From contig CALDZP010000034.1 of NCBI GenBank assembly GCA_937944105.1, positions 38,262 through 102,261 on the forward strand: a DNA stretch of 64,000 bases, in the 5' to 3' direction. The notes beneath the pieces were generated by a model, which saw only the letters and a program-made list of their open reading frames with translations, made no database searches and was not told the DNA's origin. Source of the DNA: an uncultured Ignavibacteria bacterium (GTDB taxonomy: Bacteria > Bacteroidota > Ignavibacteria > Ch128b). Positions within the stretch are counted from its first letter, which is position 1, and each line of letters opens with the position of its first letter. Below are positions 37,477-57,650 of the stretch, piece by piece. Both the position numbers and the translations under genes were made by a program.

Positions 37477-37658
37477 ATTTACGATTCTCCATTATTGTTT
37501 TGATTATAAATGAAATATATTAAAACTTTCTGTTGCTGGAGATGTAAAAATTTTGGAATGATAGCAGGAAAGAATGATATAATGATATGCAGAAAAAAGA
37601 TACAAATTAAAAATTTTTTTAATTCGATGAAGATAAAGACCCTCCATAATAAATTAAG

Positions 37659-40134: not shown

Positions 40135-40162
40135 GAATTTTATTGGGAGGTGATTTAGCAAA

Positions 40163-41638: not shown

Positions 41639-42464
41639 AAAAGTAAGTTTCGATACCAGTAAATTAGTTACAACAAAGTACTCAACTTCTTTTAGTCTTG
41701 GTATATTAACTCTGGATAAAAAATTAAGGAAACATATTTACGCAATTTATGGTCTAGTTAGAATTGCTGATGAAATTGTTGATACTTTCCATCATCTTGA
41801 TAAAAAGAAATTGCTAGACGAACTGAAAAATGAAACTTATAAATCCATTAGTAATAGATTCTCGTCTAACTTAGTTCTTAATTCATTCCAGATAACAGTC
41901 AATGAATATAAGATACCCAAAGAATTAATTGATGCATTTTTCCATTCAATGGAGATGGATACATATAAAAATAATTTTAGTCGAGAAGATTATGATAAAT
42001 ATGTTTATGGATCAGCGGAAGTAGTTGGCTTAATGTGTCTTAAAATTTTTGTTGATGGCGATGAAGATAAGTATAAAGAACTAAGAGAGTATGCTCGAGC
42101 ACTTGGTTCAGCTTTTCAGAAAGTAAATTTTCTTAGAGATATTGGTAGTGATTTAAATGATCGTCATAGGATTTACATTCCTGAAGTGCCAGAAGTTAGT
42201 GAAATAACAAATGAAGAAAAACAAAAACTAGTTCAGGAAACCGAAAGAGAATTTAGTTTAGCTCTTGAAGGAATTAAAAGGTTACCCAATTCTGCAAAGT
42301 TGGGTGTCTATTCTACTTACTTGTATTACTTGGCTTTGCTAAGAAAAATCAAGAAAAAGCAATTAGACTACTTATTAAGTAGAAGAGTAAGAGTTAATAA
42401 TTTTCACAAAATTTTACTTTTACTAAAAGCTTTTTTACAGGTTAAGGTTTTAAAATTAATATGA
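41622..42464 (+). CDS. crtB: Phytoene synthase
   Basis: 'YAIYGLVRIADEIVD' and 'YVYGSAEVVGLM', 'RDIGSDL' squalene/phytoene synthase motifs. Confidence 0.8.
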   Translation: MIQLYEKVSFDTSKLVTTKYSTSFSLGILTLDKKLRKHIYAIYGLVRIADEIVDTFHHLDKKKLLDELKNETYKSISNRFSSNLVLNSFQITVNEYKIPKELIDAFFHSMEMDTYKNNFSREDYDKYVYGSAEVVGLMCLKIFVDGDEDKYKELREYARALGSAFQKVNFLRDIGSDLNDRHRIYIPEVPEVSEITNEEKQKLVQETEREFSLALEGIKRLPNSAKLGVYSTYLYYLALLRKIKKKQLDYLLSRRVRVNNFHKILLLLKAFLQVKVLKLI

Positions 42465-42997
42465 TTTCAATTATTCTAATTTTTATTTTTCTTTTTAAGT
42501 CTTTTCCCGATTACAATTCCAGTGAAAAAGAATTGATCAGGCGTTTATTTTATTTTTCTATAGAGTCCAAAGATACTCTTAAAATTTTTGAAGATAAATT
42601 AAAAAAAATAGATAAAGAATTAGACTCCAACTTTAAAGATGCGTATTACGGAGCTTATCTAACTTTAGTAGCTAAACATTCAATAAATCCTTACACTAAG
42701 TACTTTAAATTAAAGGAAGGTTTAGAATTCTTAAATAAATCAATTAAAAATGATCCTGAAAAACTTGAGTTTAGATTCTTAAGATTATCTATACTAAATT
42801 ATGTGCCTTCTTTTTTAGGTTTTGACAATTTTTTTTATGAAGATTACAGACAAATAAAAAATCTAATAATAAAGAAAGATTATACCGAACTTGATAGAAA
42901 AATTCATAAAGGTATTCTTGAATTTTTGTTGCGAAGTCAAAAAATAAGTGAAGATGAAAAACATTTCTTAGGGAATATTTATAAAGACTTTAAATGA
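42461..42997 (+). CDS. Hypothetical protein embedded in carotenoid operon
   Basis: 178 aa; N-terminal hydrophobic segment; start and stop both overlap the flanking crt genes. Confidence 0.3.
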   Translation: MISIILIFIFLFKSFPDYNSSEKELIRRLFYFSIESKDTLKIFEDKLKKIDKELDSNFKDAYYGAYLTLVAKHSINPYTKYFKLKEGLEFLNKSIKNDPEKLEFRFLRLSILNYVPSFLGFDNFFYEDYRQIKNLIIKKDYTELDRKIHKGILEFLLRSQKISEDEKHFLGNIYKDFK

Positions 42998-43668
42998 CTG
43001 ATTATTCAATTATTCTTATCTCAACAATTATAATCCCGTTTATTTTTTCATTTGAGAAAAAAGTTAATTTTATTAGTAAAATAAAAACTGTTCTAAAGGT
43101 TATTTTTATTGTTTTTATTCCTTACATCATCTGGGATATTGTTTTTACAAATTACAGTGTTTGGGGATTTTCTGAGGAAAAAGTTTCCAGATTAAAGATT
43201 TTATCATTACCAATTGAAGAGCATTTATTTTTCTTTTGCATACCTTACACTTTAATTTTTATATATGAAGTTATTAATTTTTATTTAATTGATTCCAAGC
43301 TGAAATTTAATCACAATTTTGCTTTATTATTTGGTATTATCCTTCTAACAATTGCGATAATAACTTATCCAAAAGCATATACATCATTACAATTTTTAAT
43401 TACATCAATTTTGTCTTTTTATATTTGGCTAAAAAAGTTGGAGATATTTTTATCAAAAAATTTCTGGATTTTTATTATTGTCTCTTTCATTGGCTTTATT
43501 GTAATTAATTATTTCTTGACATCAATACCTATTGTTGTTTACAATAGTTCACAAATTCTTGGCATAAGAATTCTTACAATTCCAGTTGAGGATTTCTTTT
43601 ATCATTTCACTCTTACAACCGTTCTGATAATTTTGTATAAATCTTTTCATAGATTAAATGAAAAATAA
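42994..43668 (+). CDS. Lycopene cyclase domain protein (fused CrtYc/CrtYd type)
   Basis: 224 aa polytopic; two 'PxE(E/D)' motifs ('LPIEEHLFF', 'IPVEDFFYH') characteristic of the lycopene-cyclase domain. Confidence 0.6.
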   Translation: MTDYSIILISTIIIPFIFSFEKKVNFISKIKTVLKVIFIVFIPYIIWDIVFTNYSVWGFSEEKVSRLKILSLPIEEHLFFFCIPYTLIFIYEVINFYLIDSKLKFNHNFALLFGIILLTIAIITYPKAYTSLQFLITSILSFYIWLKKLEIFLSKNFWIFIIVSFIGFIVINYFLTSIPIVVYNSSQILGIRILTIPVEDFFYHFTLTTVLIILYKSFHRLNEK

Positions 43669-45133
43669 AATTATCATAATTGGTTCCGGATTTGGTGGAT
43701 TATCTGCTGCAATACATCTTGCTGCAAAAGGATATGAAGTTACTATCTTTGAAAAAAATAGTAAACTGGGTGGTAAAGCAGGTGAAATTGTTGAACAAGG
43801 TTTTCGTTTTGATACTGGACCGACTTTGTTGACTATGCCATTTGTTCTAGAAAATTTATTCAATGTAGGCAATTTTAATATTAATGATTTTATTTCGATC
43901 AAATCAAAAGATATTGTGACAAAATATTTTTTTAATGATGGTACAAATTTTTATCAATATTTTAATAGAGATAGACTTCTCTTAGAATTTGAAAAAGTTT
44001 GCCCAAATTCATCTGCTGAATTTATCAAGTTTATTAATTACTCAAAAAAAATTTATGATTTAACCGCCGAATTATTTTTATTTCAACCTTTTCTTGAAAT
44101 TAAAAATATTCTTCAACTGAAGAGCTTAAAGACATTATTTAAAATTAACCGAATTGATCCGTTTAGAACTGTTCATAATGCTAATAATGGTTTTTTTAAG
44201 GACAAAAAGTTTGTACAACTCTTTGATAGGTTTGCTACCTATAATGGTTCCAATCCATTCAAAGCACCAGCAACATTAAATATTATCCCATTTGTTGAAT
44301 TTGAATTTGGGGGTTACTTTGTTGAAGGAGGAATTTATAGAATTATTAATGCTCTTGAGAAGATAGCTCAAAAATTGGAAGTAAAAATTTATAAATCTTC
44401 AAATGTTGAGAAGATCTTGGTTAAAAATCAAAAGGTTGAAGGGATACTTATAGATGGAGAAAAATTTGACGCTCAAATTATAATTTCAAACTCCGATTTG
44501 TTCAATACCTACAAGTTATTGATTGGAGATGTGAAAAATTCTGAAGCTAATAAATATATAAAACAAGAGTTATCTACTTCGGCAATAATATTTTACTGGG
44601 GTGTAAGTACAAACTCTGAAAATTTAGAAATGGATAACATTCTTTTCTCAGAAGACTACCAGAAAGAATTTCATCAATTATTTGATCAGAAAGTTGTTCC
44701 AAACGATCCAACAATTCACATACATATATCGTCGAAAAAAAATTTTTTAGATGCTCCCAAAGGTTTTGAAAATTGGTATGTAATGATTAATGCACCTTCA
44801 ATTAATAAACAAAACTTTGATATTGAAGAAATAAGAGAAAGAGTTTTACAAAAGATCAAAAAAATGACTAAGATTGATTTAAGTAATAAAATTGTTTTTG
44901 AAAAATTTAAAACTCCATTAATGCTTGAAGAGGAAACATCAGGTTTATATGGCAGTCTTTATGGTCCCTCACACAACAGATTTTACTCAGCTTTTTTAAG
45001 ACAGAGAAATAAATCTTCTGTTATTGATGGTTTATATTTTTGTGGGGGGACTGTTCATCCTGGTGGGGGAATACCATTAGCAATTCTTTCGGGTAAAATT
45101 GTATCAGAAATTGTAGATAAGAACTTGAGATGA
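43658..45133 (+). CDS. CrtI-family carotenoid desaturase/ketolase paralog (CrtD- or CrtO-like)
   Basis: 'IIIIGSGFGGLSAAIHL...GGK' FAD fold; C-terminal 'GGTVHPGGGIPLA'. Confidence 0.65.
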   Translation: MKNKIIIIGSGFGGLSAAIHLAAKGYEVTIFEKNSKLGGKAGEIVEQGFRFDTGPTLLTMPFVLENLFNVGNFNINDFISIKSKDIVTKYFFNDGTNFYQYFNRDRLLLEFEKVCPNSSAEFIKFINYSKKIYDLTAELFLFQPFLEIKNILQLKSLKTLFKINRIDPFRTVHNANNGFFKDKKFVQLFDRFATYNGSNPFKAPATLNIIPFVEFEFGGYFVEGGIYRIINALEKIAQKLEVKIYKSSNVEKILVKNQKVEGILIDGEKFDAQIIISNSDLFNTYKLLIGDVKNSEANKYIKQELSTSAIIFYWGVSTNSENLEMDNILFSEDYQKEFHQLFDQKVVPNDPTIHIHISSKKNFLDAPKGFENWYVMINAPSINKQNFDIEEIRERVLQKIKKMTKIDLSNKIVFEKFKTPLMLEEETSGLYGSLYGPSHNRFYSAFLRQRNKSSVIDGLYFCGGTVHPGGGIPLAILSGKIVSEIVDKNLR

Positions 45134-45783
45134 TCGAAGCTAAACATAATGAGTTTTTTAGAAAAATTTTTAATGTTTATATCGATTGGCAACTGAAAAA
45201 ATATTTTAACAATTTCTATTTGATTGATGAATTGAATATTGAAGCTAAGGACGATTCATTATTAGTATTGCCTAATCATTTTTCATGGTGGGATGGTTTC
45301 TTCGTTGACTTGATTTACCGAAAATTATTTAGTGATTACAAATTATACATGATGGTGCTTGAAGAGACAATTAAAAAATTTTGGTTTTTCAATCATATTG
45401 GCGCTTTTACTATAAATCCAAAAAATCCAAAAGATATAAATAAATCTTTTAACTACGCTGCTAAGTTATTAAAAGGAACGAAAAATTTTGTTGTTATTTT
45501 TCCACAAGGGGAATTACACGCTTATTCGACTAAAGTAAACTTGAAAAAAGGAGTAATTGATTTGATTATTAACGGAAATTGTGAATCTAATCTACTTATG
45601 CTGGCAATGAAAATACTCTATTTAAATGAAAAAAAGCCTGATGTATTTTTTCATTGTAAATTTTCAAAAGCTTTTGATTACAGATTTGAAGGACAAAAAT
45701 TTGTTGATGATTTTAATGAAAATATCTTAAATCTCGAGACAAAAATTTCTGATCCAAATTATAAAAAAATTAAGTTATTATGA
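45130..45783 (+). CDS. LPLAT-family acyltransferase (CruD-like carotenoid glycoside acyltransferase candidate)
   Basis: 'PNHFSWWDG' (HxxxxD) and 'FPQGE' acyltransferase motifs; position in the operon. Confidence 0.55.
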   Translation: MIEAKHNEFFRKIFNVYIDWQLKKYFNNFYLIDELNIEAKDDSLLVLPNHFSWWDGFFVDLIYRKLFSDYKLYMMVLEETIKKFWFFNHIGAFTINPKNPKDINKSFNYAAKLLKGTKNFVVIFPQGELHAYSTKVNLKKGVIDLIINGNCESNLLMLAMKILYLNEKKPDVFFHCKFSKAFDYRFEGQKFVDDFNENILNLETKISDPNYKKIKLL

Positions 45784-46895
45784 TTGATTTTTTATTTTGT
45801 GCTCTTTTATCGTTAAACATTTTTTTTATATTAATTGTATTATTTAATTTTTTCTCGCCTTTAAATCTACAGGTTCCTAAGTCAACCAAGTTAAGCCTAG
45901 AAAAAAATATTTCTGTTTTAATTCCAGCAAGAAATGAAGAAGATAATATTAAAAATTGTCTTGAGGATGTTTTTAAGCAAGATCTTGAACATAAAGAAGT
46001 TATTTGTTTAGATGATGATTCTACAGATGACACCCTTAATGTTTTGTTGGATCTCAAAAAGAGATATGGAGAGTTAAGAATTATACAAGGTAAGGAGTTG
46101 CCTGATGGTTGGACAGGTAAAAATTGGGCTTGTTATCAACTGGCAGTAAATTCAACAGGAGATTTTTTGGTTTTTATTGATGCTGATGTTAGATTGAAAA
46201 AATTTGCAATAAAGTCAGCTATTTCATTGATGGAAAAATATGATATTAAAATGTTGTCAATATTTCCCACTCAAGTTATGAGAACAATTGGAGAATATCT
46301 GATAGTCCCATTGATGAATTGGTTTTTACTTACTTTTCTTCCTTTAATATTCGTTCGAAAAATTTCTCATTCTTCGTTTGTTGCTGCTAATGGCCAGTTT
46401 ATGATTTTTCGAAGAGATGCTTATTTCAAAATAGGAGGTCATCAGGCGGTTAAAAATAAAATCGTTGAAGATATGGAATTAGCCAGGTTAATGAAAAAAA
46501 ATAATTGTAGGATTATGACATTATTAGGAGGAGATTTAGTAACTGCAAGAATGTATAATAGCTTTTTAGATGGATTAAATGGTTTTTCAAAAAATTTTTT
46601 CTCAGGGTTCAATACCAGTTATTTTAAATTTTCATTCTTTCTGTTTTTCATTTTAATTGTTTTTTTAACACCGTTTTTGTTAGTGTTTATTGATGTAAAG
46701 TTTTTCATTGTAGTGGGATTGATTTTAATACAGAGAGTTTTGATTTCTAAAAAATCAAATCAGAACATTTTTATAAATCTGCTTTTATTACCTTTGCAAT
46801 TATTAATGGTCTTAGTTATTGGAATTAGATCAATGATTTTAACTAACAGAGGTGAATTAAATTGGAAAGGGAGAAATTTAAGTCACATAAAATAA
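45780..46895 (+). CDS. Family-2 glycosyltransferase (CruC-like carotenoid glycosyltransferase candidate)
   Basis: 'VLIPARNEEDNI', 'LDDDSTD' GT2 motifs; C-terminal TM helices. Confidence 0.65.
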   Translation: MIDFLFCALLSLNIFFILIVLFNFFSPLNLQVPKSTKLSLEKNISVLIPARNEEDNIKNCLEDVFKQDLEHKEVICLDDDSTDDTLNVLLDLKKRYGELRIIQGKELPDGWTGKNWACYQLAVNSTGDFLVFIDADVRLKKFAIKSAISLMEKYDIKMLSIFPTQVMRTIGEYLIVPLMNWFLLTFLPLIFVRKISHSSFVAANGQFMIFRRDAYFKIGGHQAVKNKIVEDMELARLMKKNNCRIMTLLGGDLVTARMYNSFLDGLNGFSKNFFSGFNTSYFKFSFFLFFILIVFLTPFLLVFIDVKFFIVVGLILIQRVLISKKSNQNIFINLLLLPLQLLMVLVIGIRSMILTNRGELNWKGRNLSHIK

Positions 46896-47503
46896 TTTTC
46901 TTAATATTGTTAATTTTATACTGTATTGGGATTGTACTTCATTTTATATCATCTTTTAATCATTATCTAAAATTCCTTAATCCAATTTTTTTAGTAACGG
47001 TTTTTTTAATTGTTACAGTTGATAAAAGTGTTGAAAAAAAATTTATAACTTGGGTAATTATGTCGTACTTAATTACATTGTCTATAGAAATACTTGGAGT
47101 TCATACTGGATTGATTTTTGGCAGTTACCAATATGGAAATAACCTTGGAGTAAAATTATCAGGGGTTCCGATAGTGATTGGATTAAATTGGATTACATTA
47201 CTCCTTGGGAGTATTGGATACGCTTCAATGGTAAAAACTTCTGTTTATTTAAAGAGTTTTATAAGTTCGATCTTAATGGTTGGATTTGATGGAATACTGG
47301 AATTAGTTGCATCAAAATTAAATTACTGGTTCTGGAGAGATGATATTATACCTTACCAGAATTTTATTGCCTGGTTTTTGATTTCATATATTCTGAGTTA
47401 TTTTTATTACGTATTGGTTCCTGGAAAAAACTTAATACTGGCAAAATATAATTATATCATTCAATTTCTCTTCTTTGTTATACTTTATATTTTTTTACAT
47501 TAA
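46862..47503 (+). CDS. Polytopic membrane protein, possible carotenoid-biosynthesis (CruF/Caroten_synth-like) protein
   Basis: 213 aa, 6-7 TM; last gene of the crt operon with overlapping start; family assignment from memory only. Confidence 0.35.
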   Translation: MEREKFKSHKIIFLILLILYCIGIVLHFISSFNHYLKFLNPIFLVTVFLIVTVDKSVEKKFITWVIMSYLITLSIEILGVHTGLIFGSYQYGNNLGVKLSGVPIVIGLNWITLLLGSIGYASMVKTSVYLKSFISSILMVGFDGILELVASKLNYWFWRDDIIPYQNFIAWFLISYILSYFYYVLVPGKNLILAKYNYIIQFLFFVILYIFLH

Positions 47504-48056
47504 TATTGTTTTTTGAAAAAACTCATAAAAACAACTTAATATTTTAAGAAATAAACACTTGTTTATTTCTAACCTTCGTTATTCTCGCCTTTATAGCCTT
47601 AACTTAATATTGAACATTCTTTTAAGTAAACTGATTTACAAATGCTAAATAAAGATATTTTTTAAATGTACAAAAGTTACAGCTAAGTAAAATAACTTAT
47701 GAATACCTTAAGTGTAATTTGACATTTATTTTTTATCCTTGAGTTTCTGTTACTTTCTCATAATGTATTTTATATTTATTGTAAGATTAAATTAACCACT
47801 GCTTAGATTCTTTCTTAATCAATTATCCGCGAAAAGAGAAACTCTAGATAATAGCATTTGGGTTATAATTTCCTTCAGCTGTCTAATATTAGCCAGTGCT
47901 TTTTAATAAAAACCTTCTTTTTTAGAGAAAAAAGAAGGCTTTACTTCTGGCACTTGGTTTGACTAATAAATTCTCAAATAGTTCATTTACAAAGATGAAT
48001 AAAAAAGTAATACTAAAATCACAAACATTTAATCACAAAACATAATGGAGGTTCAT

Positions 48057-48578
48057 ATGAAACGCTTAATTCTTTCACTAATTGTTCTTTCTTTTATTTC
48101 TTCTTTATCATATGCACAATCAAGTGCAAGTGCAACGGCAACCGTATTAGCTCAACTTAAGAAAGGACTTTCGGTTTCTCTCATTGGTGGAAATTTAAAT
48201 TTTGGTGAAATAATTCTGAATGGAAGTCCACAATCACCAACTATCGCTCCTTCTTCAGGTGCAAATTTCAGAGTAATCGGTCATCCAAATAAAAATATTA
48301 TGATTACTTTTAACAATGTGACTCTTGATAACAATGCTTGGGTAAGCAGCAATGGTGGAACAAATGGAACAATGGTATTTACTCCTGTTGTAAAGCATAC
48401 AGGATCGAACAGTTCTTATGATACCCCAACAGATGTTTTAAGCGGTAATTCTTATAATCTTGTAAATGTTTCAGGTGATGGTTATTTGTATTTATGGGTA
48501 GGTGGTTCACTCTCAATTGCTGCAAATCAACCTCATGGAGACTATACAGGAACATTTAGCATTACGGTTGCCTACTAA
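48057..48578 (+). CDS. Small secreted SCPU/CsuA-like (fimbrial-subunit-like) protein; stand-alone paralog of the 56.6-58.1 kb genes
   Basis: GGAGG 5 nt upstream of ATG 48057; signal peptide; shared motifs 'NFGEIIL', 'HTG.NS', 'LYLWVGGS', C-terminal 'GDYTGTFSITVAY'. Confidence 0.5.
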   Translation: MKRLILSLIVLSFISSLSYAQSSASATATVLAQLKKGLSVSLIGGNLNFGEIILNGSPQSPTIAPSSGANFRVIGHPNKNIMITFNNVTLDNNAWVSSNGGTNGTMVFTPVVKHTGSNSSYDTPTDVLSGNSYNLVNVSGDGYLYLWVGGSLSIAANQPHGDYTGTFSITVAY

Positions 48579-48598
48579 AAGTTTACTTTATTTCATAT

Positions 48599-48630
48599 GC
48601 CCCAGAATTTTCCTGGGGCTTTTTTATTTT
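48599..48630 (+). terminator. Rho-independent terminator
   Basis: GCCCCAG-aattttc-CTGGGGC hairpin followed by TTTTTTATTTTT. Confidence 0.7.
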
Positions 48631-48706
48631 TAATCTTTCAATCAATTTTTCATTCATTTTAAATTAAAATATTTTTTCGCTTTGTTAATTCTTTTATATT
48701 TGCTTT

Positions 48707-49261
48707 ATGAAAAAATTAAACCTCGGTTGTGGAAATAAAATACTTGATGGATACGTTAATCTTGATGTAGTTGATTATGGCGGTAATTTAATTCATGATT
48801 TAAATTCCTTCCCGTATCCTTTTGATGACAATACTTTCGATGAAATTCTTGCCAGCCATATTTTAGAACACCTTCAAAACTTTAACAAAGTAATCAATGA
48901 ATTATATAGAATTTCGAAACCAAACGCAATAATAAAAGTTTATGCACCTTTTTTCTTGAATACAAAATTCTTTGGAGATCCTGATCATAAAATTCCATTC
49001 TCAATTAGAACTTTTGATAATTACGAATTCATTGAAAATAAAAAATTGAAATTCTACGAGCGATGGAAATTGAATCATAGAACTAATTACCAAACAACAG
49101 CTAAATTCGAAATACTTGAAAAGAAATTTAATGTCTCCAATTTTGTTCCATTAAGATGGCTTAATTTTATTGTAAATTTAGAACCTGTCGTTTATGAGAG
49201 ATTTTTTGCTGGCATTCTATCACCCGAAGAAGTCATTTTTATACTAAGAGTCGTAAAATAA
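48707..49261 (+). CDS. Class I SAM-dependent methyltransferase
   Basis: 'LNLGCGNKILDGYVNLDV' motif I; 'ILASHILEHL' motif. Confidence 0.6.
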   Translation: MKKLNLGCGNKILDGYVNLDVVDYGGNLIHDLNSFPYPFDDNTFDEILASHILEHLQNFNKVINELYRISKPNAIIKVYAPFFLNTKFFGDPDHKIPFSIRTFDNYEFIENKKLKFYERWKLNHRTNYQTTAKFEILEKKFNVSNFVPLRWLNFIVNLEPVVYERFFAGILSPEEVIFILRVVK

Positions 49262-49289
49262 ATTTGCATCATATACTTGACTTTATTAT

Positions 49290-49500
49290 ACTCTTTTTGA
49301 TGTGAATGTTCTTTTCAATCGATGTGGATAAGTTGTGGAAATCGTTCCGCTGTGAAAAGTTTTCACATCAGGAATTTTAATCATAAAAGTTTTCCACATC
49401 AAATAATGTTAATTTCAAAACATTCTAAACCATAATTAATTGAATTACAATAACTTACGAAGATTATTTGATGTGGATAACTTGTGGATAATTTTTACTT
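49290..49500. other. Chromosomal replication origin (oriC) DnaA-box cluster
   Basis: Perfect TGTGGATAA (=TTATCCACA) at 49323-49331, 49472-49480 and 49483-49491; degenerate boxes TGTGGAAAT (49334), TTTTCCACA (49390), TTTTCACA and TGTGAATGT; AT-rich; directly upstream of dnaA. Confidence 0.7.
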
Positions 49501-49538
49501 AAACTTAAACTTTAAGTCATTCAACCAAGTTAAAATAA

Positions 49539-51047
49539 ATGGGTTTAAATATGAGTGTGGATAACTTACAAAATAAAAATAGTCAAAAAGTACTGATTAA
49601 AAACGATACAAAACAAAGAATTTTTAAAAATCCAGAGAAAGCAAAAGAAATTTGGAATTCTTTTATTGAGGTAATTAAGAAAAATATAAATGGTCTTTCT
49701 TTTAAAACTTGGTTCGAACCAATTGAACCAGTCGGTTTTGACAAAGATGAGTTAGTTATCAAAGTGCCAAATGATTTATCCTGGGATTATATTGAAGTGA
49801 ATTTTAATTCATTAATTAAAAAAGCTCTTTTAGCAGCATTGGGTGAAAATGGAAAGTTAACATATATATACGATACACAAAAAGATGAAACCTTAGAAAT
49901 AATTAAAGAAAATAAAGAATACTCCAAAGAAAAAATTAATAATGGTAATAACTCATGGTATCAGGGTGTAACTAAAAATATTAATTGGAACATTAATAGC
50001 TCAAAAGAGCAGGAGAATTTTGAAACAAATTTAAATGAGAAATTTACTTTTGATAATTTTATAAAAGGTGAAAGTAATCAATTTGCTCGTGCAGCAGCTT
50101 TTGCGGTAGCAAATTCACCTGGAGGGACTTCATTCAATCCTTTATTTATTTATGGAGGTGTTGGACTTGGAAAAACGCATCTTATTCAGGCAATTGGAAA
50201 TTATGTTGTGGAAAATAAAAAAGTTAAAAAAGTCTTGTATACTACTGCAGAGAAATTTACAACAGAATTTGTTGATTCAATAAAAAAAGGTAATACAAAT
50301 GAATTTACAGCGTTCTATCGAAAAGTTGATCTTTTAATTATAGATGATATTCAATTTTTATCAGGAAAGGAATCCACAACAGATACTTTCTTTCATATCT
50401 TTAATAGCCTTTATCAATTAGGTAAGCAAATTGTTCTTTCGTGTGATAAACCACCCAAGAGTTTATCGGGGATTGATGAAAGATTAATCTCAAGATTTCA
50501 ATGGGGCTTATCGGTTGATATTCAACCACCAGATTTTGAAACAAGGATAGCAATTCTTATCAAGAAGAGTGAGTCATTTAATCTTGATATTGATTTAAGT
50601 ATTCTCGAATACATTGCAGCAAACATAACAAATAATATTCGTGAACTTGAAGGCGCTTTGATAAAACTACTTGCAAAAGCATCTCTAGAGAACAGAGAAA
50701 TTACACTTGATCTTGCCAGAGAAATAGTAAAGTCTATTGCAACCGAAAAAAAGTCGACCCTTACAATTGATCAAATACAAAATATTGTGGCAGAATATTT
50801 TGGTTATTCCCCTGATGTTTTGATCTCTAAAACAAAGAAGAAAGAGTATGTTCTTGCGAGACAAATAGCTATGTATTTTGCAAAGAAATTTACAAATGCC
50901 TCTCTTAAAACTATCGGTTTGAACTTTGGTGGTCGTGATCATACAACTGTAATTCATGCGCTACAATGCATTGAAGAACAAATGAAAGATGATTCCTTTG
51001 TGGCTATGTTGAGTACAATTCAGGGAAAAATTGAATACAGAACTTGA
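49539..51047 (+). CDS. dnaA: Chromosomal replication initiator DnaA
   Basis: 'GGVGLGKTHLIQAIGN' Walker A, 'LIIDDIQFL', C-terminal DNA-binding 'VLARQIAMYFAKKFT...GGRDHTTVIHA'. Confidence 0.9.
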   Translation: MGLNMSVDNLQNKNSQKVLIKNDTKQRIFKNPEKAKEIWNSFIEVIKKNINGLSFKTWFEPIEPVGFDKDELVIKVPNDLSWDYIEVNFNSLIKKALLAALGENGKLTYIYDTQKDETLEIIKENKEYSKEKINNGNNSWYQGVTKNINWNINSSKEQENFETNLNEKFTFDNFIKGESNQFARAAAFAVANSPGGTSFNPLFIYGGVGLGKTHLIQAIGNYVVENKKVKKVLYTTAEKFTTEFVDSIKKGNTNEFTAFYRKVDLLIIDDIQFLSGKESTTDTFFHIFNSLYQLGKQIVLSCDKPPKSLSGIDERLISRFQWGLSVDIQPPDFETRIAILIKKSESFNLDIDLSILEYIAANITNNIRELEGALIKLLAKASLENREITLDLAREIVKSIATEKKSTLTIDQIQNIVAEYFGYSPDVLISKTKKKEYVLARQIAMYFAKKFTNASLKTIGLNFGGRDHTTVIHALQCIEEQMKDDSFVAMLSTIQGKIEYRT

Positions 51048-51979
51048 TAGAATTTGAATATATATCTTAAAATTGTAATAATTAGTAATCTCTGTACAAT
51101 AAAAACCTATTAATTAAATCTTTTATAAAATCGCATTGCAGTTGAATTCATAAAATTGATTAATTTGTTTAATAGAACATTAAATCTATTTTTTTAATTG
51201 ATTTTACTAATAAGTCAGGAGATTCAATTTAGTTGTAATCAAGGATGTGACGATTTATTTTGTTTTACAATTAAGGTAAGATTCACAGATTTTTCTAATT
51301 GCAATTTTAGAGGAATTCAAGAATGGCAAATCACATTTAGAAGTCTGTGGTTTAGTGTTAAAAAGTAAAGATTTGCTTAAAAATGCTCTGACTTTTTATT
51401 AAATTTATTCAGTGTTTTAGATACAATTTCTCGGGTCTACTTTAATTTTTTTGTTGGCTATCCTTAAAGTATTATTTAGTTAACCTGTCCCAATTTTTCG
51501 GGGTCATATTCTAATTTTTGATCTTAATCTAAATTTAACTTGCAAAATGTCCTGGCATCCATCAGCACCAGAATCCCGAATAAGATTTATTGTTATGCCT
51601 CCAGAATTTGCAATGAAAATTAATAGTAAATTTAAATTTTGAGCCTTGTGCTGAATATTTTTTGTCATTTTTTTGACTGTCAAGCTGAACTTGTTCCAGC
51701 ATTCTTCTTAGAACCCCGAAACATCCTGATATTCATAAGGACATGGTTTGTAATGAAACTTATTGGGCAGTCAATAAAAGTTTTATGCATTAAGTAATGA
51801 TATCGGTCTATTTATTTAAAATGTTCGACAAGAATTAGAAAATTCTAATTGTATCTCTCCATTAAAATTTACAAACTATTAAAACTCGATTCTTGAAAAA
51901 TTAATAAAATTTTTACAGAGAGTTTATTATTTCTTAACAATGCTACTTTAGATTGGCCTCAAAAATTGGAAGGTAAAAT

Positions 51980-54769
51980 ATGAATTTAAATGTAAAACCT
52001 ATCGTAAAAAGCTTTAATAAAACATATTTAATTTTGTTATTCTTTTTCTCATTAATGAATGTTTACTCTCAATCAAAAGGTTCAATTATTGGAACAGTTA
52101 GAGATGAGGTGACTGGTGAGCCGATTATAGGAGCAAATGTTCTCTTAGAAAATACAAGTTTTGGGGCAGCTTCCGATTTAAATGGTAAATTTCAGATTCG
52201 TGATGTTGAAGAGGGGCTTTATAACATTAAAATAAGTCATGTTGCCTATCAAACAAAAATTATAACAAATGTTGAAGTTAAATCAAAAGAGGTTACACAA
52301 CTTAATATAACACTTTCCAGTAATGTACTTGAAACACAAGAAATATTAGTTGAAACTAAATCGGATAAATCATATGAGAATGCTTTGTTGAATTTGCGAA
52401 AAAATTCTCAAAACATTTTAGATGGGATTAGTGCAGAACAAATTAGAAGAACCACAGATGGTCTAACCAGCGATATATTAAAAAGAATTACTGGATTAAC
52501 GATTAACGAAAATAAGTTTGTCAATATAAGGGGTACAAGTGAAAGGTATAATGTAACACAGTTAAACAATTCCAATATTACCAGCACCGAATCGGAGAAA
52601 AAAGCGTTTTCATTTGATTTACTTTCCGCTAATCTTCTGGAATATGCTAATGTTATTAAATCTTATACTCCTGATTTACCAGCAAATTTTGCAGGGGGTG
52701 TAGTTCAACTAAATACAATAAGTTTTCCTGAATATCTTAGAGCTTCGGCTGGTTATTCTACATCATATTCAGAGGGCACATCATTAAAAAGTTTTTCAAC
52801 ATACGAAAATGGAACAAACTTTTTTGGATTTGATAATGGTAGTAGAAAATTACCGGAAAACTTTCCTGATAATTTAAATAAATCAGGTTTAAATCGAGAT
52901 CAAATAAATGAATTAGCTAAAAGTTTAAAAAACATTTGGCAAACTAAGTCAGTTAAAGCACCATTAAATCAAAGCTTTTATTTTACAATTGGTGATGGTA
53001 CCAGATTGATTGGCAGTCAATTTGGATTTGTTACGGCCTTTAGCTATAAAAATGATCATAGAAATTCTTTCATTAATTTGAATGAATATGAATCTTCTGG
53101 TGAGAAAAGATTTGAATATGAAGGTATCAAGTCTTCAAAATCCGTAAACCTTGGAGGTTTATTAAATTTAAGCTATAAATTTAGCGATAATCATTTAATC
53201 TCATGGAGAAACCTTTATTCTCATAGCTCCGATGATGAAGTATCTTTATTACATGGATATCAATACACAGATGCGGGCAAGGAACAAAAGCAAACTGCTA
53301 TTAGATATACAGAACGAGATCTTTTATCGGCGCAAATATTTGGTGAACACTTCTTTCAAAATTTAAATGGATTAAGAGTTGATTGGCGATTTAGTTTAAG
53401 TAACTCCAGAAAGTTAGAACCAGATTATAGAAGAATATATTATGGTAGAGATATAGGTGACGACGGACCGTTCTATGCAGTTCTTGGTTTTCAACCAAAT
53501 CTTAAAAATGGTGGAAGGTTTTTCTCAAACCTTCATGATAAATCAAGGGGTTTAGCCGTAGATTTTAGAACCAATTTGTATTTATTGAGATTTAAGTTTG
53601 GTTTTTCTTATGATGTTACTAAAAGAGATTTTGCTTCTAGATTAATAAGCGTTATAATTAATGCTCCAGGAAATGGTTATACTGATTTTTCATTATTAAC
53701 ACTTCCCCTCGACAAAATTTTTGGTCCAGAGAATTTCAGAAAAAATGGATTTTCAATTGATGAATATCAGAATGGAACAAACAATTATTCTGCCTCTGAG
53801 GAGGTCATTTCATCATACTTAATGACGGAAATCCCTTTTCATTTTGTGAATAAAGAGATAAAAATTTTTGGTGGTTTCAGAATGGAGAACTCTTTACAGA
53901 AAATTAATTCAATGGATGTTAGTGGAGAAATTCCAATTTCGAATTACCTGAAAAAAATTGATTATTTACCTTCCATAAATTTTTTAATTAAACTTAATGA
54001 TTTTACCAATGTCAGATTTTCATACAGCCAGACTTTGAATCGCCCGGAACTTCGGGAGTTAGCACCTTTTGCTTATTTTGATTTTGCAACACAAACTTCT
54101 ATTCGTGGTAATCCAGATTTACAAAGATCATTTATCAAAAATTATGATTTAAGAATAGAAAGCCTTCCTGGTTTGGGTAAATTGATTTCTGCAAATGTTT
54201 TCTATAAAAGCATCTCTAATGCTATAGAAAAGGTTGTTGTTACTGGTAGTGCGCTTGGTTCTGAAAGAACTTTTATGAATGCTGATAAAGCCGAGGTTTA
54301 CGGTTTTGAACTTGAAGGTAGAATATCATTCGGTTTTATTTCAGATTATCTTGAAAATTTATCAATAAATGGAAACTATACAAGAATAAATTCTTTTGTT
54401 AATGTCAGAGGTACTGAGACAACTATCTCAAGGGAAAAAAGACCACTTCAAGGACAATCTCCATATGTTATCAATTTCGGGATTTATTTTGTAGAACCAA
54501 GTTTGGGTAGTTCCTTCACAGTCAATTATAATAAAATAGGAAAAAGAATTGTCGAAGTTGCGACAGCTTATCAGGACGATATAATTGAAAAACCAAGAGA
54601 TGTTATCGACATTAAAATATCTCAGACAGTATTGAAAGGATTTAGTCTAAGCTTAGGGATTAAAGATTTGTTAGCTCAGGATTACGCATTTGTACAAGGT
54701 GATTTGCCGGCAAGAATAATAAAAGCAAATACAACTTACTCATTAGGAATTAATTATAAACTAAACTAA
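51980..54769 (+). CDS. TonB-dependent receptor family outer membrane protein (CarboxypepD_reg N-terminal)
   Basis: Signal peptide, 'GSIIGTVRDEVTGEPIIGANV' CarbopepD_reg, plug-like region, long beta-barrel body. Confidence 0.65.
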   Translation: MNLNVKPIVKSFNKTYLILLFFFSLMNVYSQSKGSIIGTVRDEVTGEPIIGANVLLENTSFGAASDLNGKFQIRDVEEGLYNIKISHVAYQTKIITNVEVKSKEVTQLNITLSSNVLETQEILVETKSDKSYENALLNLRKNSQNILDGISAEQIRRTTDGLTSDILKRITGLTINENKFVNIRGTSERYNVTQLNNSNITSTESEKKAFSFDLLSANLLEYANVIKSYTPDLPANFAGGVVQLNTISFPEYLRASAGYSTSYSEGTSLKSFSTYENGTNFFGFDNGSRKLPENFPDNLNKSGLNRDQINELAKSLKNIWQTKSVKAPLNQSFYFTIGDGTRLIGSQFGFVTAFSYKNDHRNSFINLNEYESSGEKRFEYEGIKSSKSVNLGGLLNLSYKFSDNHLISWRNLYSHSSDDEVSLLHGYQYTDAGKEQKQTAIRYTERDLLSAQIFGEHFFQNLNGLRVDWRFSLSNSRKLEPDYRRIYYGRDIGDDGPFYAVLGFQPNLKNGGRFFSNLHDKSRGLAVDFRTNLYLLRFKFGFSYDVTKRDFASRLISVIINAPGNGYTDFSLLTLPLDKIFGPENFRKNGFSIDEYQNGTNNYSASEEVISSYLMTEIPFHFVNKEIKIFGGFRMENSLQKINSMDVSGEIPISNYLKKIDYLPSINFLIKLNDFTNVRFSYSQTLNRPELRELAPFAYFDFATQTSIRGNPDLQRSFIKNYDLRIESLPGLGKLISANVFYKSISNAIEKVVVTGSALGSERTFMNADKAEVYGFELEGRISFGFISDYLENLSINGNYTRINSFVNVRGTETTISREKRPLQGQSPYVINFGIYFVEPSLGSSFTVNYNKIGKRIVEVATAYQDDIIEKPRDVIDIKISQTVLKGFSLSLGIKDLLAQDYAFVQGDLPARIIKANTTYSLGINYKLN

Positions 54770-56619: not shown

Positions 56620-57141
56620 ATGATTAGATTGATTAAACATACATTAATGTTTTTCCTAATGTATAACTTATGCATTGGACAACAGTATAACATTTCTGCA
56701 ACTGGACAGGTTAATATGATAAAACCACTTTCAATTACTTCGATTAACAGCACAATAAATTTTGGGGAAATTATCTTAAGTGGTTCTAATTTCATAAAAA
56801 GTCTGAGTCCATCGGAAGGAGCAATTTTTAAGATTGAGGGTCATCCAAATCGAAATGTAATAATTTCTTTTAACCCGGTGACTCTTTCCAATTCAGAATG
56901 GGTCGCTCAAAATGGTGGAACACTTGGTACGTTAAATTTTGAAGCAAATGTTGTTCATACTGGAGCGAATTCGTCTTATCAATCTCCTGTTTCTGTACAA
57001 AATGGAAATTCATATCAGCTTGTAAATTCGTCTGGTATAGGCATTTTGTATTTATGGGTTGGTGGTTCAATAAATATTCAAGCTAATCAGCCAGTAGGGG
57101 ATTACCAGGGAATATTCAGTATAATGGTATCTTATCAATGA
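56620..57141 (+). CDS. SCPU/CsuA-like fimbrial-subunit-like secreted protein (paralog 1 of operon)
   Basis: Signal peptide; 'INFGEIILSGS', 'HTGANSSY', 'LYLWVGGS', C-terminal 'GDYQGIFSIMVSY'; about 45% identical to the 48057 paralog. Confidence 0.5.
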   Translation: MIRLIKHTLMFFLMYNLCIGQQYNISATGQVNMIKPLSITSINSTINFGEIILSGSNFIKSLSPSEGAIFKIEGHPNRNVIISFNPVTLSNSEWVAQNGGTLGTLNFEANVVHTGANSSYQSPVSVQNGNSYQLVNSSGIGILYLWVGGSINIQANQPVGDYQGIFSIMVSYQ

Positions 57142-57650
57142 AAAAATATATTTTAATGATTTTATTTTTTCTTTTTTCAGTTGATTGTTGGAGTCAGACT
57201 AATGAAACAGCGAGCCTTAATATAAGAGCTTCGCTAAAGAGAGGGATCAGTGTTCTTAATCAAAATAACATTTTAAGTTTTGGGGAAATTATTTTGTCAG
57301 GTTCATCTTTTGAATTAAATAAATCACCTCAAGAAGGATTAAGATTTAAGATTTTTTCAGATCCAGCAAAACCTGTTATGATAAGTTATAGTAATGTTGA
57401 GTTAAATTTATCAACTAATTCTGGGAATTTGACAAATGATAATTTACTTTTTGTTCCGAAGGTTTATCATACTGGTGGTAATTCTGATTTTATAGATCCA
57501 GTTGAAGTATTTTCTGGAATTTATTATCAACCACAAAATCAATCTGGTGAAGGTATTTTAAATTTATGGATTGGAGGAACACTTAAAATAAGTCAGTCAA
57601 ATATTCAAGGTGATTATTCAGGCACACTTATAATAACAATTGCATATTAA
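57138..57650 (+). CDS. SCPU/CsuA-like fimbrial-subunit-like secreted protein (paralog 2)
   Basis: Signal peptide; 'SFGEIILSGS', 'YHTGGNS', 'LNLWIGGT', C-terminal 'GDYSGTLIITIAY'; 4-nt overlap with the upstream gene. Confidence 0.5.
   Translation: MKKYILMILFFLFSVDCWSQTNETASLNIRASLKRGISVLNQNNILSFGEIILSGSSFELNKSPQEGLRFKIFSDPAKPVMISYSNVELNLSTNSGNLTNDNLLFVPKVYHTGGNSDFIDPVEVFSGIYYQPQNQSGEGILNLWIGGTLKISQSNIQGDYSGTLIITIAY

What the first reader, a model, noticed from the sequence alone, without database searches (positions are those of the whole stretch)
49290..51979. Chromosomal origin: DnaA-box cluster upstream of dnaA, no dnaN downstream, and a 930-bp ORF-free tract instead
Three perfect TTATCCACA boxes, all in the same orientation, and at least four 1-2-mismatch boxes lie within 200 bp upstream of dnaA, interleaved with AT-rich spacers that are candidate DNA-unwinding elements. 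Unlike the widespread rpmH-dnaA-dnaN-recF arrangement, dnaA here is preceded by a methyltransferase and followed by a 930-bp tract without any ORF of 60 aa or more, then a TonB-dependent receptor. This places window coordinates about 49.3-51.9 kb as the replication origin and makes the flanking fimbrial and carotenoid loci origin-proximal, which means high gene dosage in fast growth.
Basis: partly seen in the sequence, partly recalled or inferred. Interest (0 to 1): 0.6.

Follow-up and report, generated by a model that had tools for sequence, protein, structure and literature searches.

The report
DnaA-box array upstream of dnaA
A conserved cluster of DnaA-binding sites lies in front of the dnaA gene of an uncultured Ignavibacteriaceae bacterium, but local strand composition does not show replication starting there, and the gene-free stretch after dnaA is the scar of a roughly 9-kb deletion.

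Summary
All four exact TTATCCACA boxes in the 64-kb window lie at 49323-49564, in one orientation (0.78 expected window-wide). Four related Ignavibacteriaceae loci, with 71-76% DnaA identity, keep the same layout and spacing. dnaA is real. Its conserved start is 49551, so the fourth box covers codons 2-5. A 184-aa methyltransferase precedes dnaA, and no dnaN is in the window.

The origin interpretation is only partly supported.
- Orientation-corrected third-codon GC skew makes the + strand G-rich left of dnaA: r = +0.066, CI 0.025-0.106. An origin here predicts the opposite sign.
- A syntenic relative repeats this result. + genes left and right of dnaA are indistinguishable.
- An I. album-type relative shows the origin-type sign.
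- No exceptional unwinding element or conserved DnaA-trio array was found.

The 932-bp ORF-free tract is not origin DNA.
- Relatives carry seven minus-strand genes, an oxidoreductase and multihaem-cytochrome operon of about 9.3 kb, between dnaA and the same TonB receptor.
- The window keeps only the oxidoreductase's last 21 codons and the receptor's native upstream roughly 85 bp.
- The tract has fewer DnaA boxes than shuffles give.

Most likely this is a DnaA-autoregulated dnaA promoter and leader. A real origin remains a serious rival at about 0.35-0.4.

The parts
48707..49261 (+). 184-aa SAM-methyltransferase-like gene, the conserved upstream neighbour of dnaA in Ignavibacteriaceae
   Evidence: Pfam Methyltransf_11 matches the C-terminal half only. 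A 184-190-aa ORF occupies the same position in L001, L002, L083, L084 and L085.
49263..49292 (+). Promoter-like block TTTGCA-18 nt-TATACT at the 5' edge of the intergenic region, upstream of all the boxes. The -10 hexamer reads TATAAT in the three relatives.
   Evidence: Consensus scan. The block is invariant or near-invariant in the 4-genome alignment A4. This is a sequence match only, and promoter activity is inferred.
49323..49342 (-). Tandem DnaA-box pair A: exact TGTGGATAA at 49323-49331, a 2-nt gap, then TGTGGAAAT with 2 mismatches at 49334-49342. The start-to-start distance is 11 bp.
   Evidence: The pair is conserved in L001, L083 and L084, and both boxes are exact in L083.
49351..49367 (.). 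Perfect 17-bp palindrome TGTGAAAAGTTTTCACA, which reads as two head-to-head weak DnaA-box-like halves (NTTTTCACA)
   Evidence: Invariant in A4. It occurs exactly once per locus, and only upstream of dnaA, in L001, L081, L082, L083 and L084. It is partly kept in L002.
49390..49398 (+). Oppositely oriented DnaA box TTTTCCACA with 1 mismatch. It is the left arm of a 24-nt inverted repeat with tandem pair B.
   Evidence: inverted repeat I1, 92% complementary. The TCCAC core is invariant in six Ignavibacteria sequences.
49399..49471 (.). 73-bp AT-rich spacer towards which the 49390 box and tandem pair B both point. It contains the conserved block AATGTTAAT (49405-49413). It is the only candidate unwinding or DnaA-trio region.
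   Evidence: NTN triplets follow the 49390 box in 3 of 4 genomes by my manual reading of A4. Instability is only at the 94th-97th percentile. Inconclusive.
49472..49491 (-). Tandem DnaA-box pair B: two exact TGTGGATAA separated by CT, with an 11-bp start-to-start distance
   Evidence: Invariant in A4. A degenerate version sits at the same place in I. album-type loci.
49551..51047 (+). dnaA with a revised start. The ORF list gives 49539, but only ATG 49551 is conserved.
   Evidence: Pfam DnaA_N, Bac_DnaA and Bac_DnaA_C. Start-codon conservation.
49556..49564 (-). Exact DnaA box overlapping codons 2-5 of dnaA
   Evidence: Conserved in L001, L083 and L084, and present with 1 mismatch in L002.
51048..51254 (.). 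Convergent intergenic spacer between the dnaA stop and the stop of the oxidoreductase relic. It is the most AT-rich part of the locus (16-20% GC) and has no DnaA boxes.
   Evidence: The equivalent spacer is 173 bp in L170, 70 bp in L084, 58 bp in L083 and 3 bp in L001, so it is not a conserved element.
51255..51320 (-). Relic of the last 21 codons plus the stop codon of a ~330-aa Pyr_redox_2 oxidoreductase that is intact next to dnaA in relatives
   Evidence: tblastn gives 63-74% identity over 19 aa, E = 3e-4 to 4e-3 against the whole window. tblastx also finds it. Translation reads LNSSKIAIRKICESYLNCKTK*, and the C-termini of the relatives align with it.
51321..51895 (.). Unassigned non-coding filler at the deletion junction. 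It includes the 31 nt (51346-51376) that no independent Logan contig spans.
   Evidence: No ORF of 60 aa or more. No Pfam match. No Rfam match. RNA fold z = -1.1. No homology to the relatives' operon. Logan contigs stop at 51345 and restart at 51377.
51896..51979 (+). Native upstream region of the TonB-dependent receptor gene, conserved in relatives
   Evidence: blastn gives 72-74% identity over 73-90 bp to L174, L170 and L171. See also alignment A5.
51980..54769 (+). TonB-dependent receptor, the first gene of a receptor / Por_Secre_tail / DUF4402 cluster
   Evidence: Pfam. Relatives L170, L172, L174 and L175 carry the same cluster.

Best explanation
The region 49263-49564 is a conserved array of DnaA-binding sites in the promoter and 5' leader of dnaA.

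Layout, in order:
- a conserved promoter-like block;
- tandem box pair A;
- a palindrome of two weak boxes;
- one box in the opposite orientation;
- a 73-bp AT-rich spacer;
- tandem box pair B;
- a box over codons 2-5 of dnaA.

The most likely function is autoregulation. DnaA, probably cooperatively through the 11-bp-phased tandem pairs, occupies the region between the promoter and the start codon and throttles dnaA transcription. The E. coli and B. subtilis dnaA promoters are known to work this way. The array may descend from, or still serve as, the box-rich half of an ancestral dnaA-linked origin. The strand composition of the flanking genes indicates that forks pass rightward through this locus rather than starting in it.

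The 932-bp ORF-free tract downstream has nothing to do with initiation. It is the scar of a deletion of about 9 kb. The deletion removed a minus-strand operon of seven genes (oxidoreductase, multihaem cytochromes, ferredoxin-type protein) that lies between dnaA and the TonB receptor in close relatives.

Shown here: the sites, their conservation, the deletion and the skew polarity. Inferred: DnaA binding, repression, and the direction of fork movement.
For: The box cluster:
- All 4 exact boxes of the window fall within 242 bp.
- Spacings of about 149, 11 and 73 bp are identical in L001, L083 and L084. The same layout appears in Logan contigs L081 and L082, which carry an identical DnaA.
- The boxes, the palindrome and the promoter block are invariant, while the spacers between them vary.
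- The intergenic region is 66-76% identical between genomes, about the same as the dnaA coding DNA at 71-73%.
- A weaker version of the same architecture exists in I. album-type genomes that still have dnaA-dnaN. The array therefore does not depend on what lies downstream.
- The boxes sit between a conserved TTTGCA-18-TATAAT block and the ATG, and one overlaps codons 2-5. This is a repression-type geometry.

No polarity switch at dnaA:
- Left flank r_GC3 = +0.066 [0.025, 0.106]. The two halves give +0.078 and +0.069.
- The syntenic block in relative L177 gives +0.102 in window orientation.
- To the right of dnaA in L170, r = +0.113.
- + genes on the left and on the right do not differ (p = 0.76).
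- The I. album-type locus L085 gives -0.080 [-0.149, -0.014] on the left, the sign expected near an origin.

Other points:
- The 11 ORFs of at least 120 aa immediately left of dnaA (37849-49261) are all on the + strand. In relatives the 7 genes after dnaA are on the - strand. These flanking genes would be head-on to forks leaving an origin here.
- No exceptional unwinding element is present.

The deletion scar.
Against: - Nine box-like sites in about 265 bp, five of them at or near the consensus, is denser than in characterised autoregulatory dnaA promoters. That density is typical of oriC.
- No other cluster was found. The window has none, about 177 kb of lineage-related loci held only 3 singleton exact boxes, and the regions upstream of detached dnaN genes are not enriched.
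- The boxes are perfect in this dnaN-less sublineage but degenerate in I. album-type genomes. That would fit an origin function consolidated upstream of dnaA.
- tRNA-Arg at 37658-37732, and also prfA and ruvB, are on the - strand. They would be co-directional with a leftward fork.
- The skew test rests on 38 genes and on the assumption of a G-rich leading strand.
- The TA3 component did not discriminate: it was positive in both the window and L085.
- In the relatives the contrast between upstream and downstream genes depends on a single operon.
- The promoter is only a consensus match.
Confidence: 0.5

Rival explanations
1. The methyltransferase-dnaA spacer (49262-49560) is the chromosomal replication origin, a compact single-part oriC upstream of dnaA. 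DnaA would bind the two phased tandem pairs and the opposed 49390 box, oligomerise, and open the 73-bp AT-rich spacer at 49399-49471. The dnaA promoter would be embedded in the origin.
For: - The array is dense, conserved and next to dnaA.
- It is the only DnaA-box cluster in 64 kb and in about 177 kb of related loci.
- Regions upstream of detached dnaN genes lack boxes.
- Tandem boxes 2 nt apart are the commonest arrangement in predicted basal unwinding systems (PMC8287927).
- The 49390 box and pair B converge on an AT-rich spacer with a conserved AATGTTAAT block. That block reads as NTN triplets 4-7 nt from the box in 3 of 4 genomes (my manual reading).
- tRNA-Arg, prfA and ruvB are oriented as expected for a leftward fork.
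- The I. album-type relative shows origin-type polarity near dnaA, and M. roseus has a predicted dnaA-linked origin (PMC3534657).
- About 60 other Bacteroidota dnaA loci have no exact consensus box within 400 bp (one has a single box), so this array is lineage-specific and not a generic dnaA feature.
Against: - The GC3 polarity left of dnaA is the reverse of what an origin predicts. This holds in two sub-blocks and in a second genome.
- + genes on the two sides do not differ.
- The 11 upstream genes in the window, and 7 downstream genes in relatives, would all be head-on.
- The spacers are not unusually unstable.
- The triplet pattern next to tandem pair B is not conserved, and the pattern is permissive in 71% AT DNA.
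- No parS site is in the window.
Confidence: 0.37
2. The array is a DnaA reservoir or titration site, like datA or the B. subtilis DnaA-box clusters. Alternatively it is the surviving box-rich half of a former two-part origin whose unwinding half left with dnaN. Either way it would modulate initiation from a distance without being the start site.
For: - The ancestral arrangement in I. album-type genomes has boxes on both sides of dnaA and a 385-525-bp AT-rich dnaA-dnaN spacer.
- M. roseus is predicted to initiate in the dnaA-dnaN spacer.
- The dnaN-recF-DciA-gyrB-gyrA block is detached in ~31-32% GC Ignavibacteria loci that may belong to this sublineage (lineage assignment not verified), with 265-1670-bp non-coding regions upstream of dnaN.
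- There is no polarity switch at dnaA.
Against: - The regions upstream of dnaN are not enriched in boxes.
- Nothing distinguishes titration from plain autoregulation in sequence alone.
- The detached dnaN loci are not proven to come from the same genomes.
Confidence: 0.1
3. The ORF-free tract is a functional non-coding element: an origin unwinding region, a small RNA or a riboswitch leader for the TonB receptor.
For: - The stretch 51048-51254 is among the least stable 1% of the window.
- TonB receptor genes often have long regulated leaders.
- About 85 bp upstream of the receptor are conserved.
Against: - No Rfam match at E of 1 or below.
- Fold z = -1.1.
- DnaA boxes are fewer than expected, 1 against 4.3.
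- The dnaA-proximal spacer shrinks to 3-70 bp in relatives.
- Relatives have 7 genes in this position.
- The tract contains a gene relic.
- Only the last ~85 bp are conserved.
Confidence: 0.03

Closest known systems
DnaA-autoregulated dnaA promoters (E. coli dnaA P1/P2 with an intervening DnaA box; the B. subtilis dnaA upstream region). From my own knowledge.
   Same: Consensus DnaA boxes lie between a promoter-like element and the dnaA start codon, and one box overlaps the start of the gene. In E. coli the gene is not at the origin.
   Different: There are many more and stronger boxes here: five at or within 1 mismatch of the consensus (four exact), two phased tandem pairs and a palindrome. 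Neither the promoter nor repression has been demonstrated.
Single-part oriC upstream of dnaA (for example the Pseudomonas rpmH-dnaA spacer). From my own knowledge.
   Same: A cluster of consensus boxes lies in the spacer immediately upstream of dnaA, with AT-rich stretches between them.
   Different: The upstream neighbour is a methyltransferase, not rpmH. Local strand asymmetry does not switch here. No distinct unwinding repeats are present.
Two-part origins that flank dnaA (B. subtilis incA/B-dnaA-incC; H. pylori oriC1-dnaA-oriC2; PMC6669920, PMC8235120)
   Same: A box-rich region lies upstream of dnaA. I. album-type relatives also have an AT-rich spacer downstream of dnaA, before dnaN.
   Different: In this sublineage the downstream half is gone. 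The spacer after dnaA is 3-207 bp before a convergent gene and has no boxes.
Predicted oriC of Melioribacter roseus in the 303-bp dnaA-dnaN spacer (PMC3534657)
   Same: It belongs to the same class (Ignavibacteria). The candidate origin is linked to dnaA, and its GC-skew transition was used as support.
   Different: It lies on the other side of dnaA. dnaN is not adjacent here, and no skew transition is seen locally.
Basal unwinding system: a DnaA box or box pair, a spacer of at most 16 bp, and at least 3 DnaA-trios (PMC8287927)
   Same: Tandem boxes 2 nt apart. NAN/NTN triplet runs lie within 4-7 nt of tandem pair B and of the 49390 box.
   Different: The triplet runs next to pair B are not conserved among relatives. 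None reads as a run of the preferred 3'-GAT-5'. The pattern is expected by chance in 71% AT DNA.

Membership tests
Bacterial chromosomal origin (DnaA-dependent oriC) | Cluster of DnaA boxes above chance | tested here: met
   4 exact boxes plus 2 with 1-2 mismatches lie in 309 bp, against 1.4 expected, and 0 of 300 shuffles reached this. The boxes are conserved in 4 related genomes.
Bacterial chromosomal origin (DnaA-dependent oriC) | Switch of strand compositional asymmetry (GC skew) at the site | tested here: not met
   Only a local test was possible.
- r_GC3 left of dnaA is +0.066 [0.025, 0.106], the same sign as to the right of dnaA in L170 (+0.113).
- The result is replicated in L177.
- + genes left and right are equal.
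- Raw skew shows no sign change at 49.3 kb.
Whole-genome skew could not be tested.
Bacterial chromosomal origin (DnaA-dependent oriC) | Distinct AT-rich DNA-unwinding element next to the boxes | tested here: inconclusive
   The inter-box spacers have 22-24% GC in a 29% GC genome and reach only the 94th-97th percentile of instability. No 13-mer-type repeats are present.
Bacterial chromosomal origin (DnaA-dependent oriC) | Genes diverge from the site (co-orientation with the forks) | tested here: not met
   The 11 genes immediately to the left are all on the + strand. In relatives, the 7 genes after dnaA are on the - strand. tRNA-Arg (-) at 37.7 kb is the one feature that fits.
Bacterial chromosomal origin (DnaA-dependent oriC) | Initiation activity: marker-frequency peak, autonomous replication, DnaA-dependent unwinding | not testable with these tools
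   No reads or experiments are available.
Basal unwinding system (BUS; PMC8287927) | DnaA box or tandem pair with at least 3 DnaA-trios (central A) within 16 bp on the correct side | tested here: inconclusive
   - The window has TAC GAA GAT TAT followed by TTGA before pair B. This run is lost in L001, L083 and L084.
- ATA ATG TTA ATT lies 4 nt after box 49390, and the pattern is kept in 3 of 4 genomes.
Both readings are my manual reading of A4, using the definition. I inferred the box orientation from E. coli oriC and from the '5'-tail' statement.
DnaA-autoregulated dnaA promoter | DnaA boxes located between or over the promoter elements and the dnaA start | tested here: met
   A conserved TTTGCA-18-TATAAT block at 49263-49292 lies upstream of all the boxes, and one box covers codons 2-5. 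The promoter is a consensus match only.
DnaA-autoregulated dnaA promoter | Repression of dnaA transcription by DnaA | not testable with these tools
   This needs reporter fusions or DnaA depletion.
Gene-deletion scar (for 51048-51979) | The flanking genes are syntenic with relatives that carry intervening genes | tested here: met
   L170 has dnaA, then 7 minus-strand genes (about 9.3 kb), then the same TonB receptor cluster. L174 keeps the distal operon genes upstream of the receptor. L001, L083 and L084 keep the proximal ones after dnaA.
Gene-deletion scar (for 51048-51979) | Residual fragment of a lost gene in the right place and orientation | tested here: met
   The last 21 codons and the stop codon of the oxidoreductase lie at 51320-51255 on the - strand, with 63-74% identity to four orthologues. 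No relic of the other six genes was detected.

The most novel reading that the evidence does not exclude
This Ignavibacteriaceae sublineage may capture an intermediate step in the uncoupling of dnaA from the origin within Bacteroidota. I. album-type genomes keep methyltransferase-dnaA-dnaN with origin-type skew polarity. In this sublineage dnaN has left and forks appear to pass through the locus. Even so, the ancestral box array has been kept and sharpened to the perfect consensus, as an initiator-sensing control region that is not an origin. About 60 dnaA loci from other Bacteroidota (Bacteroidales, Cytophagales and others) have lost all boxes near dnaA. If so, a strong DnaA-box cluster next to dnaA would be a false positive for origin finders in this clade.
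Probability: 0.3. Interest if true: 0.4.

Novelty: new member of a known kind. Interest (0 to 1): 0.2.

Why it matters
Origin predictors and genome-start conventions lean heavily on a DnaA-box cluster next to dnaA. Here that signature is strong and conserved, yet it disagrees with local strand asymmetry. Origin-proximity and gene-dosage claims for the neighbouring carotenoid and DUF4402 loci should therefore not be made from it alone.

The case also shows that an ORF-free tract beside dnaA can be a simple deletion scar rather than origin DNA. In this organism the deletion removed an oxidoreductase and multihaem-cytochrome operon that relatives retain, which may matter for its respiratory capacity.

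Otherwise the features are of familiar kinds.

Tried and rejected
- **Rfam.** The whole window at gathering threshold gave only a cobalamin riboswitch and a tRNA. The region 47400-52100 at E of 1 or below gave nothing.
- **tRNA/tmRNA scan.** Only tRNA-Arg was found.
- **Repeats.** No repeat family links the tract to the rest of the window, and there are no convincing terminal inverted repeats.
- **Promoter and terminator scan.** Counts did not exceed shuffles. It was useful only for the conserved TTTGCA/TATACT block.
- **Small ORFs of the tract.** No Pfam match at E of 1 or below.
- **RNA fold of 51346-51979.** z = -1.1.
- **A remnant of dnaN, recF or gyrB in the tract or window.** None found.
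- **"oriC moved away with dnaN".** Regions upstream of dnaN in detached loci are not enriched in boxes. It is unproven that these loci belong to the same genomes.
- **parS as an origin-proximity marker.** No site with up to 3 mismatches.
- **Helix-stability ranking to find an unwinding element.** Not discriminating in this AT-rich genome.
- **TA3 skew as a second replication indicator.** Dropped, because it is positive on the left in both the window and L085.
- **Skew difference across +/-10 kb in about 60 Bacteroidota dnaA loci.** The median is about 0 and the spread is about +/-0.08, too noisy to calibrate single loci.
- **My first impression that the spacer is more conserved than dnaA.** Wrong. 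Pairwise identity is 66-76% against 71-73% for dnaA.
- **The Logan contig break at 51345.** I first read it as a repeat or a chimeric join. A contig from the same sample resumes 31 nt later, so micro-heterogeneity is more likely.


Full report
**Source and context.** The window has about 29% GC. Its DnaA is 71-76% identical to DnaA of uncultured Ignavibacteriaceae (L001, L083, L084) and 64-66% identical to I. album-type MAGs (L002, L085). Genes around the finding, in order:
- a TonB-type receptor;
- a carotenoid operon with two CrtI-like desaturases, phytoene synthase, lycopene cyclase, an acyltransferase, a glycosyltransferase and Caroten_synth;
- a DUF4402 protein;
- a 184-aa methyltransferase-like protein;
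- dnaA;
- the ORF-free tract;
- a TonB-dependent receptor, a Por_Secre_tail protein, and DUF4402 paralogues.

**The observation.** Exact TTATCCACA occurs four times in 64 kb, at 49323, 49472, 49483 and 49556. All four read TGTGGATAA on the + strand. Shuffles give 0.78 on average and never 4. One-mismatch boxes are not enriched window-wide (28 against 23.7). Within 49262-49570 there are 6 sites with at most 2 mismatches against 1.4 expected.

The sites form a regular layout:
- tandem pair A, at 49323 (exact) and 49334 (2 mismatches), 11 bp start to start;
- a perfect 17-bp palindrome, TGTGAAAAGTTTTCACA, at 49351-49367, made of two weak box-like halves;
- an oppositely oriented TTTTCCACA at 49390;
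- a 73-bp AT-rich spacer;
- tandem pair B, at 49472 and 49483, both exact;
- a box at 49556.

The 49390 box and pair B are the cores of a 24-nt inverted repeat with 92% complementarity.

dnaA is confirmed. In a four-genome alignment only the ATG at 49551 is conserved. The ORF-list start at 49539 is not, so the last box covers codons 2-5. The tract 51048-51979 is 932 bp with no ORF above 59 aa. No dnaN, recF or gyrB is in the window.

**Conservation.**
- L001, L083 and L084 carry the same gene order: carotenoid genes, DUF4402, methyltransferase, dnaA. They have the same boxes at the same spacings. L083 has five exact boxes because both members of pair A are perfect.
- In alignment A4 the boxes, the palindrome, a block AATGTTAAT and a promoter-like TTTGCA-18-TATAAT block are invariant, while the spacers vary.
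- Pairwise identity of the spacer is 66-76%, about that of the dnaA coding DNA at 71-73%. That is high for non-coding DNA at this divergence.
- I. album-type loci keep a degenerate version of every element at the same positions. The array is therefore old, and it does not depend on dnaN being downstream.
- Of roughly 60 dnaA loci from other Bacteroidota with long flanks, none has an exact consensus box within 400 bp of dnaA (one has a single box). The array is a feature of Ignavibacteria.

**Is it the origin?**

*For.* The array is dense, conserved and next to dnaA. It is also the only cluster in the window, and about 177 kb of lineage-related loci contain only three singleton exact boxes. Some Ignavibacteria have a detached dnaN-recF-DciA-gyrB-gyrA block (L164-L169). 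The regions upstream of dnaN there are not enriched in boxes. M. roseus, in the same class, has a predicted dnaA-linked origin with a skew transition (PMC3534657).

*Against.* Raw GC skew does not change sign at 49.3 kb, but here it follows gene orientation. I therefore separated the two effects at third codon positions.
- Left of dnaA there are 22 + genes and 16 - genes. Their coding-strand GC3 skews are +0.09 and -0.04 (Mann-Whitney p = 0.014).
- This gives a strand term r = +0.066 (bootstrap 95% CI 0.025-0.106). The + strand is G-rich regardless of gene direction.
- Both halves of the left flank agree, at +0.078 and +0.069.
- A relative with the same gene order over window positions 14-33 kb, but only 59% identity at the third codon positions of prfA (the one gene measured), gives +0.102 in window orientation.
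- To the right of dnaA in relative L170, where both orientations are present, r = +0.113.
- In the window, + genes left and right of 49.3 kb are indistinguishable (p = 0.76).

An origin at 49.3 kb predicts a negative r on the left. It also predicts that left - genes resemble right + genes. The opposite is seen.

L085, an I. album-type locus with dnaA-dnaN, gives r = -0.080 [-0.149, -0.014] on the left. That is the origin-type sign, so the method can register it.

Gene orientation agrees with the skew. The 11 genes upstream of dnaA here are all on the + strand, and in relatives the 7 genes downstream are on the - strand. Nearly all immediate neighbours would be head-on to forks from this site.

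*Caveats.*
- The sample is small.
- A G-rich leading strand is assumed.
- TA3 skew did not discriminate.
- tRNA-Arg, prfA and ruvB on the - strand fit a leftward fork.

**Unwinding elements.** The inter-box spacers reach only the 94th-97th percentile of predicted instability. Many other intergenic regions are weaker.

I took the published definition of the basal unwinding system and inferred the box orientation from E. coli oriC and from the "5'-tail" statement.
- Triplet runs with a central A occur next to pair B in the window but are lost in relatives.
- A run next to the 49390 box, which includes the conserved AATGTTAAT, is kept in three of four genomes (manual reading).
- In 71% AT DNA this pattern is expected by chance, so the test is inconclusive.

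No parS site is in the window.

**The ORF-free tract.** tblastx and tblastn place the C-terminus of a ~330-aa Pyr_redox_2 oxidoreductase at window 51320-51264 on the - strand. In L001, L083 and L084 this protein is encoded convergently just after dnaA. Translation reads LNSSKIAIRKICESYLNCKTK followed by a stop codon at 51255-51257. This matches the last 21 residues of four orthologues.

L170 lies on a 296-kb contig, and its TonB receptor is 76% identical to the window's. It shows the full arrangement. After dnaA come seven minus-strand genes of about 9.3 kb in all:
- the oxidoreductase;
- a 524-aa protein;
- two multihaem cytochromes;
- a Fer4/Pyr_redox protein;
- a TPR protein;
- a 298-aa protein.

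These are followed by the same TonB receptor, Por_Secre_tail and DUF4402 cluster as window 51980 onward. L174, the closest receptor homologue found (78% identity), also keeps the distal operon genes. None of the seven genes is in the window apart from the relic.

Only about 85 bp upstream of the receptor start align with relatives. The 575 bp in between (51321-51895) have no ORF, Pfam, Rfam, fold or homology signal. The tract has fewer DnaA boxes than expected, 1 against 4.3. The AT-rich stretch after dnaA corresponds to a spacer that shrinks to 3-70 bp in relatives, so it is not a conserved element.

Two Logan assemblies of this organism end at 51345. A third contig from the same sample resumes at 51377. 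No independent contig spans the junction. The 31-nt gap suggests micro-heterogeneity rather than a false join.

**Conclusion.** The box array is real and very probably functional. I rank explanations in this order:
- autoregulation of dnaA, possibly a retained half of an ancestral dnaA-linked origin: 0.5;
- a true compact origin: 0.37;
- a titration site or remnant role: 0.1.

The tract is a deletion scar and should be removed from the origin claim. Whole-contig skew and read-coverage slope would settle the origin question.

Noticed in passing
window 51048-51979 compared with L170 292-10000: This organism has lost a seven-gene minus-strand operon of about 9.3 kb that four or five relatives keep between dnaA and the TonB receptor. 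The operon encodes a Pyr_redox_2 oxidoreductase, two multihaem cytochromes, a Fer4/Pyr_redox protein, a TPR protein and two unknowns. The loss may change its respiratory repertoire.
   Followed up: yes
window 49387-49483: The box at 49390 and tandem pair B lie within 24-nt inverted repeats whose flanks (ATCAAATAAT) are also complementary. Relatives show a few compensatory changes but also broken pairs. Folded as RNA, the dnaA leader has z = -3.46. This could be a leader hairpin, a cruciform, or just extended box flanks.
   Followed up: partly
window 49351-49367: A perfect palindrome, TGTGAAAAGTTTTCACA, is invariant in five loci and found only upstream of dnaA. It might bind DnaA head to head, or a different dimeric regulator. 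It resembles parS half-sites in swapped order but is not parS.
   Followed up: partly
window 51346-51376: Two independent Logan assemblies stop at 51345, and another contig from the same sample starts at 51377. These 31 nt at the deletion junction are spanned by no independent contig.
   Followed up: partly
window 13867-16089; L164 3186-5321; L165 745-2970: The window's 740-aa LTD/CHU_C protein is 62-63% identical to the LTD protein that sits directly upstream of the detached dnaN-recF-DciA-gyrB block in other Ignavibacteria. In the window a glycosyltransferase on the opposite strand follows it instead. This points to a rearrangement breakpoint there.
   Followed up: partly
L168 8333-10000: A 1.67-kb ORF-free region with 25% GC lies upstream of a detached dnaN. 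It is not enriched in consensus DnaA boxes. Its content is unknown.
   Followed up: no
window 48707-49261: The 184-aa methyltransferase-like gene is linked to dnaA in every Ignavibacteria locus examined. It matches only the C-terminal half of Methyltransf_11, and the SAM-binding N-terminal motifs were not detected.
   Followed up: no
window 1-142 (-): A cobalamin riboswitch aptamer is cut by the window edge (79 bits). Separately, methionine synthase is split into two genes on opposite strands: the B12-binding and activation part at 11754-13532 (-) and the homocysteine and pterin-binding part at 27033-28850 (+).
   Followed up: no
window 37658-37732 (-): tRNA-Arg(CCT) lies at the point where the gene mix on both strands gives way to an unbroken run of + strand genes from 37849 to the window end.
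   Followed up: no
window 48045-48578 and 56620-57650: DUF4402 paralogues lie on both sides of dnaA and share a 79-nt stretch at 71% identity (D2). The downstream set is followed by 158-, 276- and 1192-aa proteins with no Pfam match, and the cluster is conserved in relatives.
   Followed up: no
L177 561-2024: In a relative, the block next to ruvB holds a Card1-type CARF endonuclease and an MJ1673-family protein. The window has different genes there (33362-35534).
   Followed up: no
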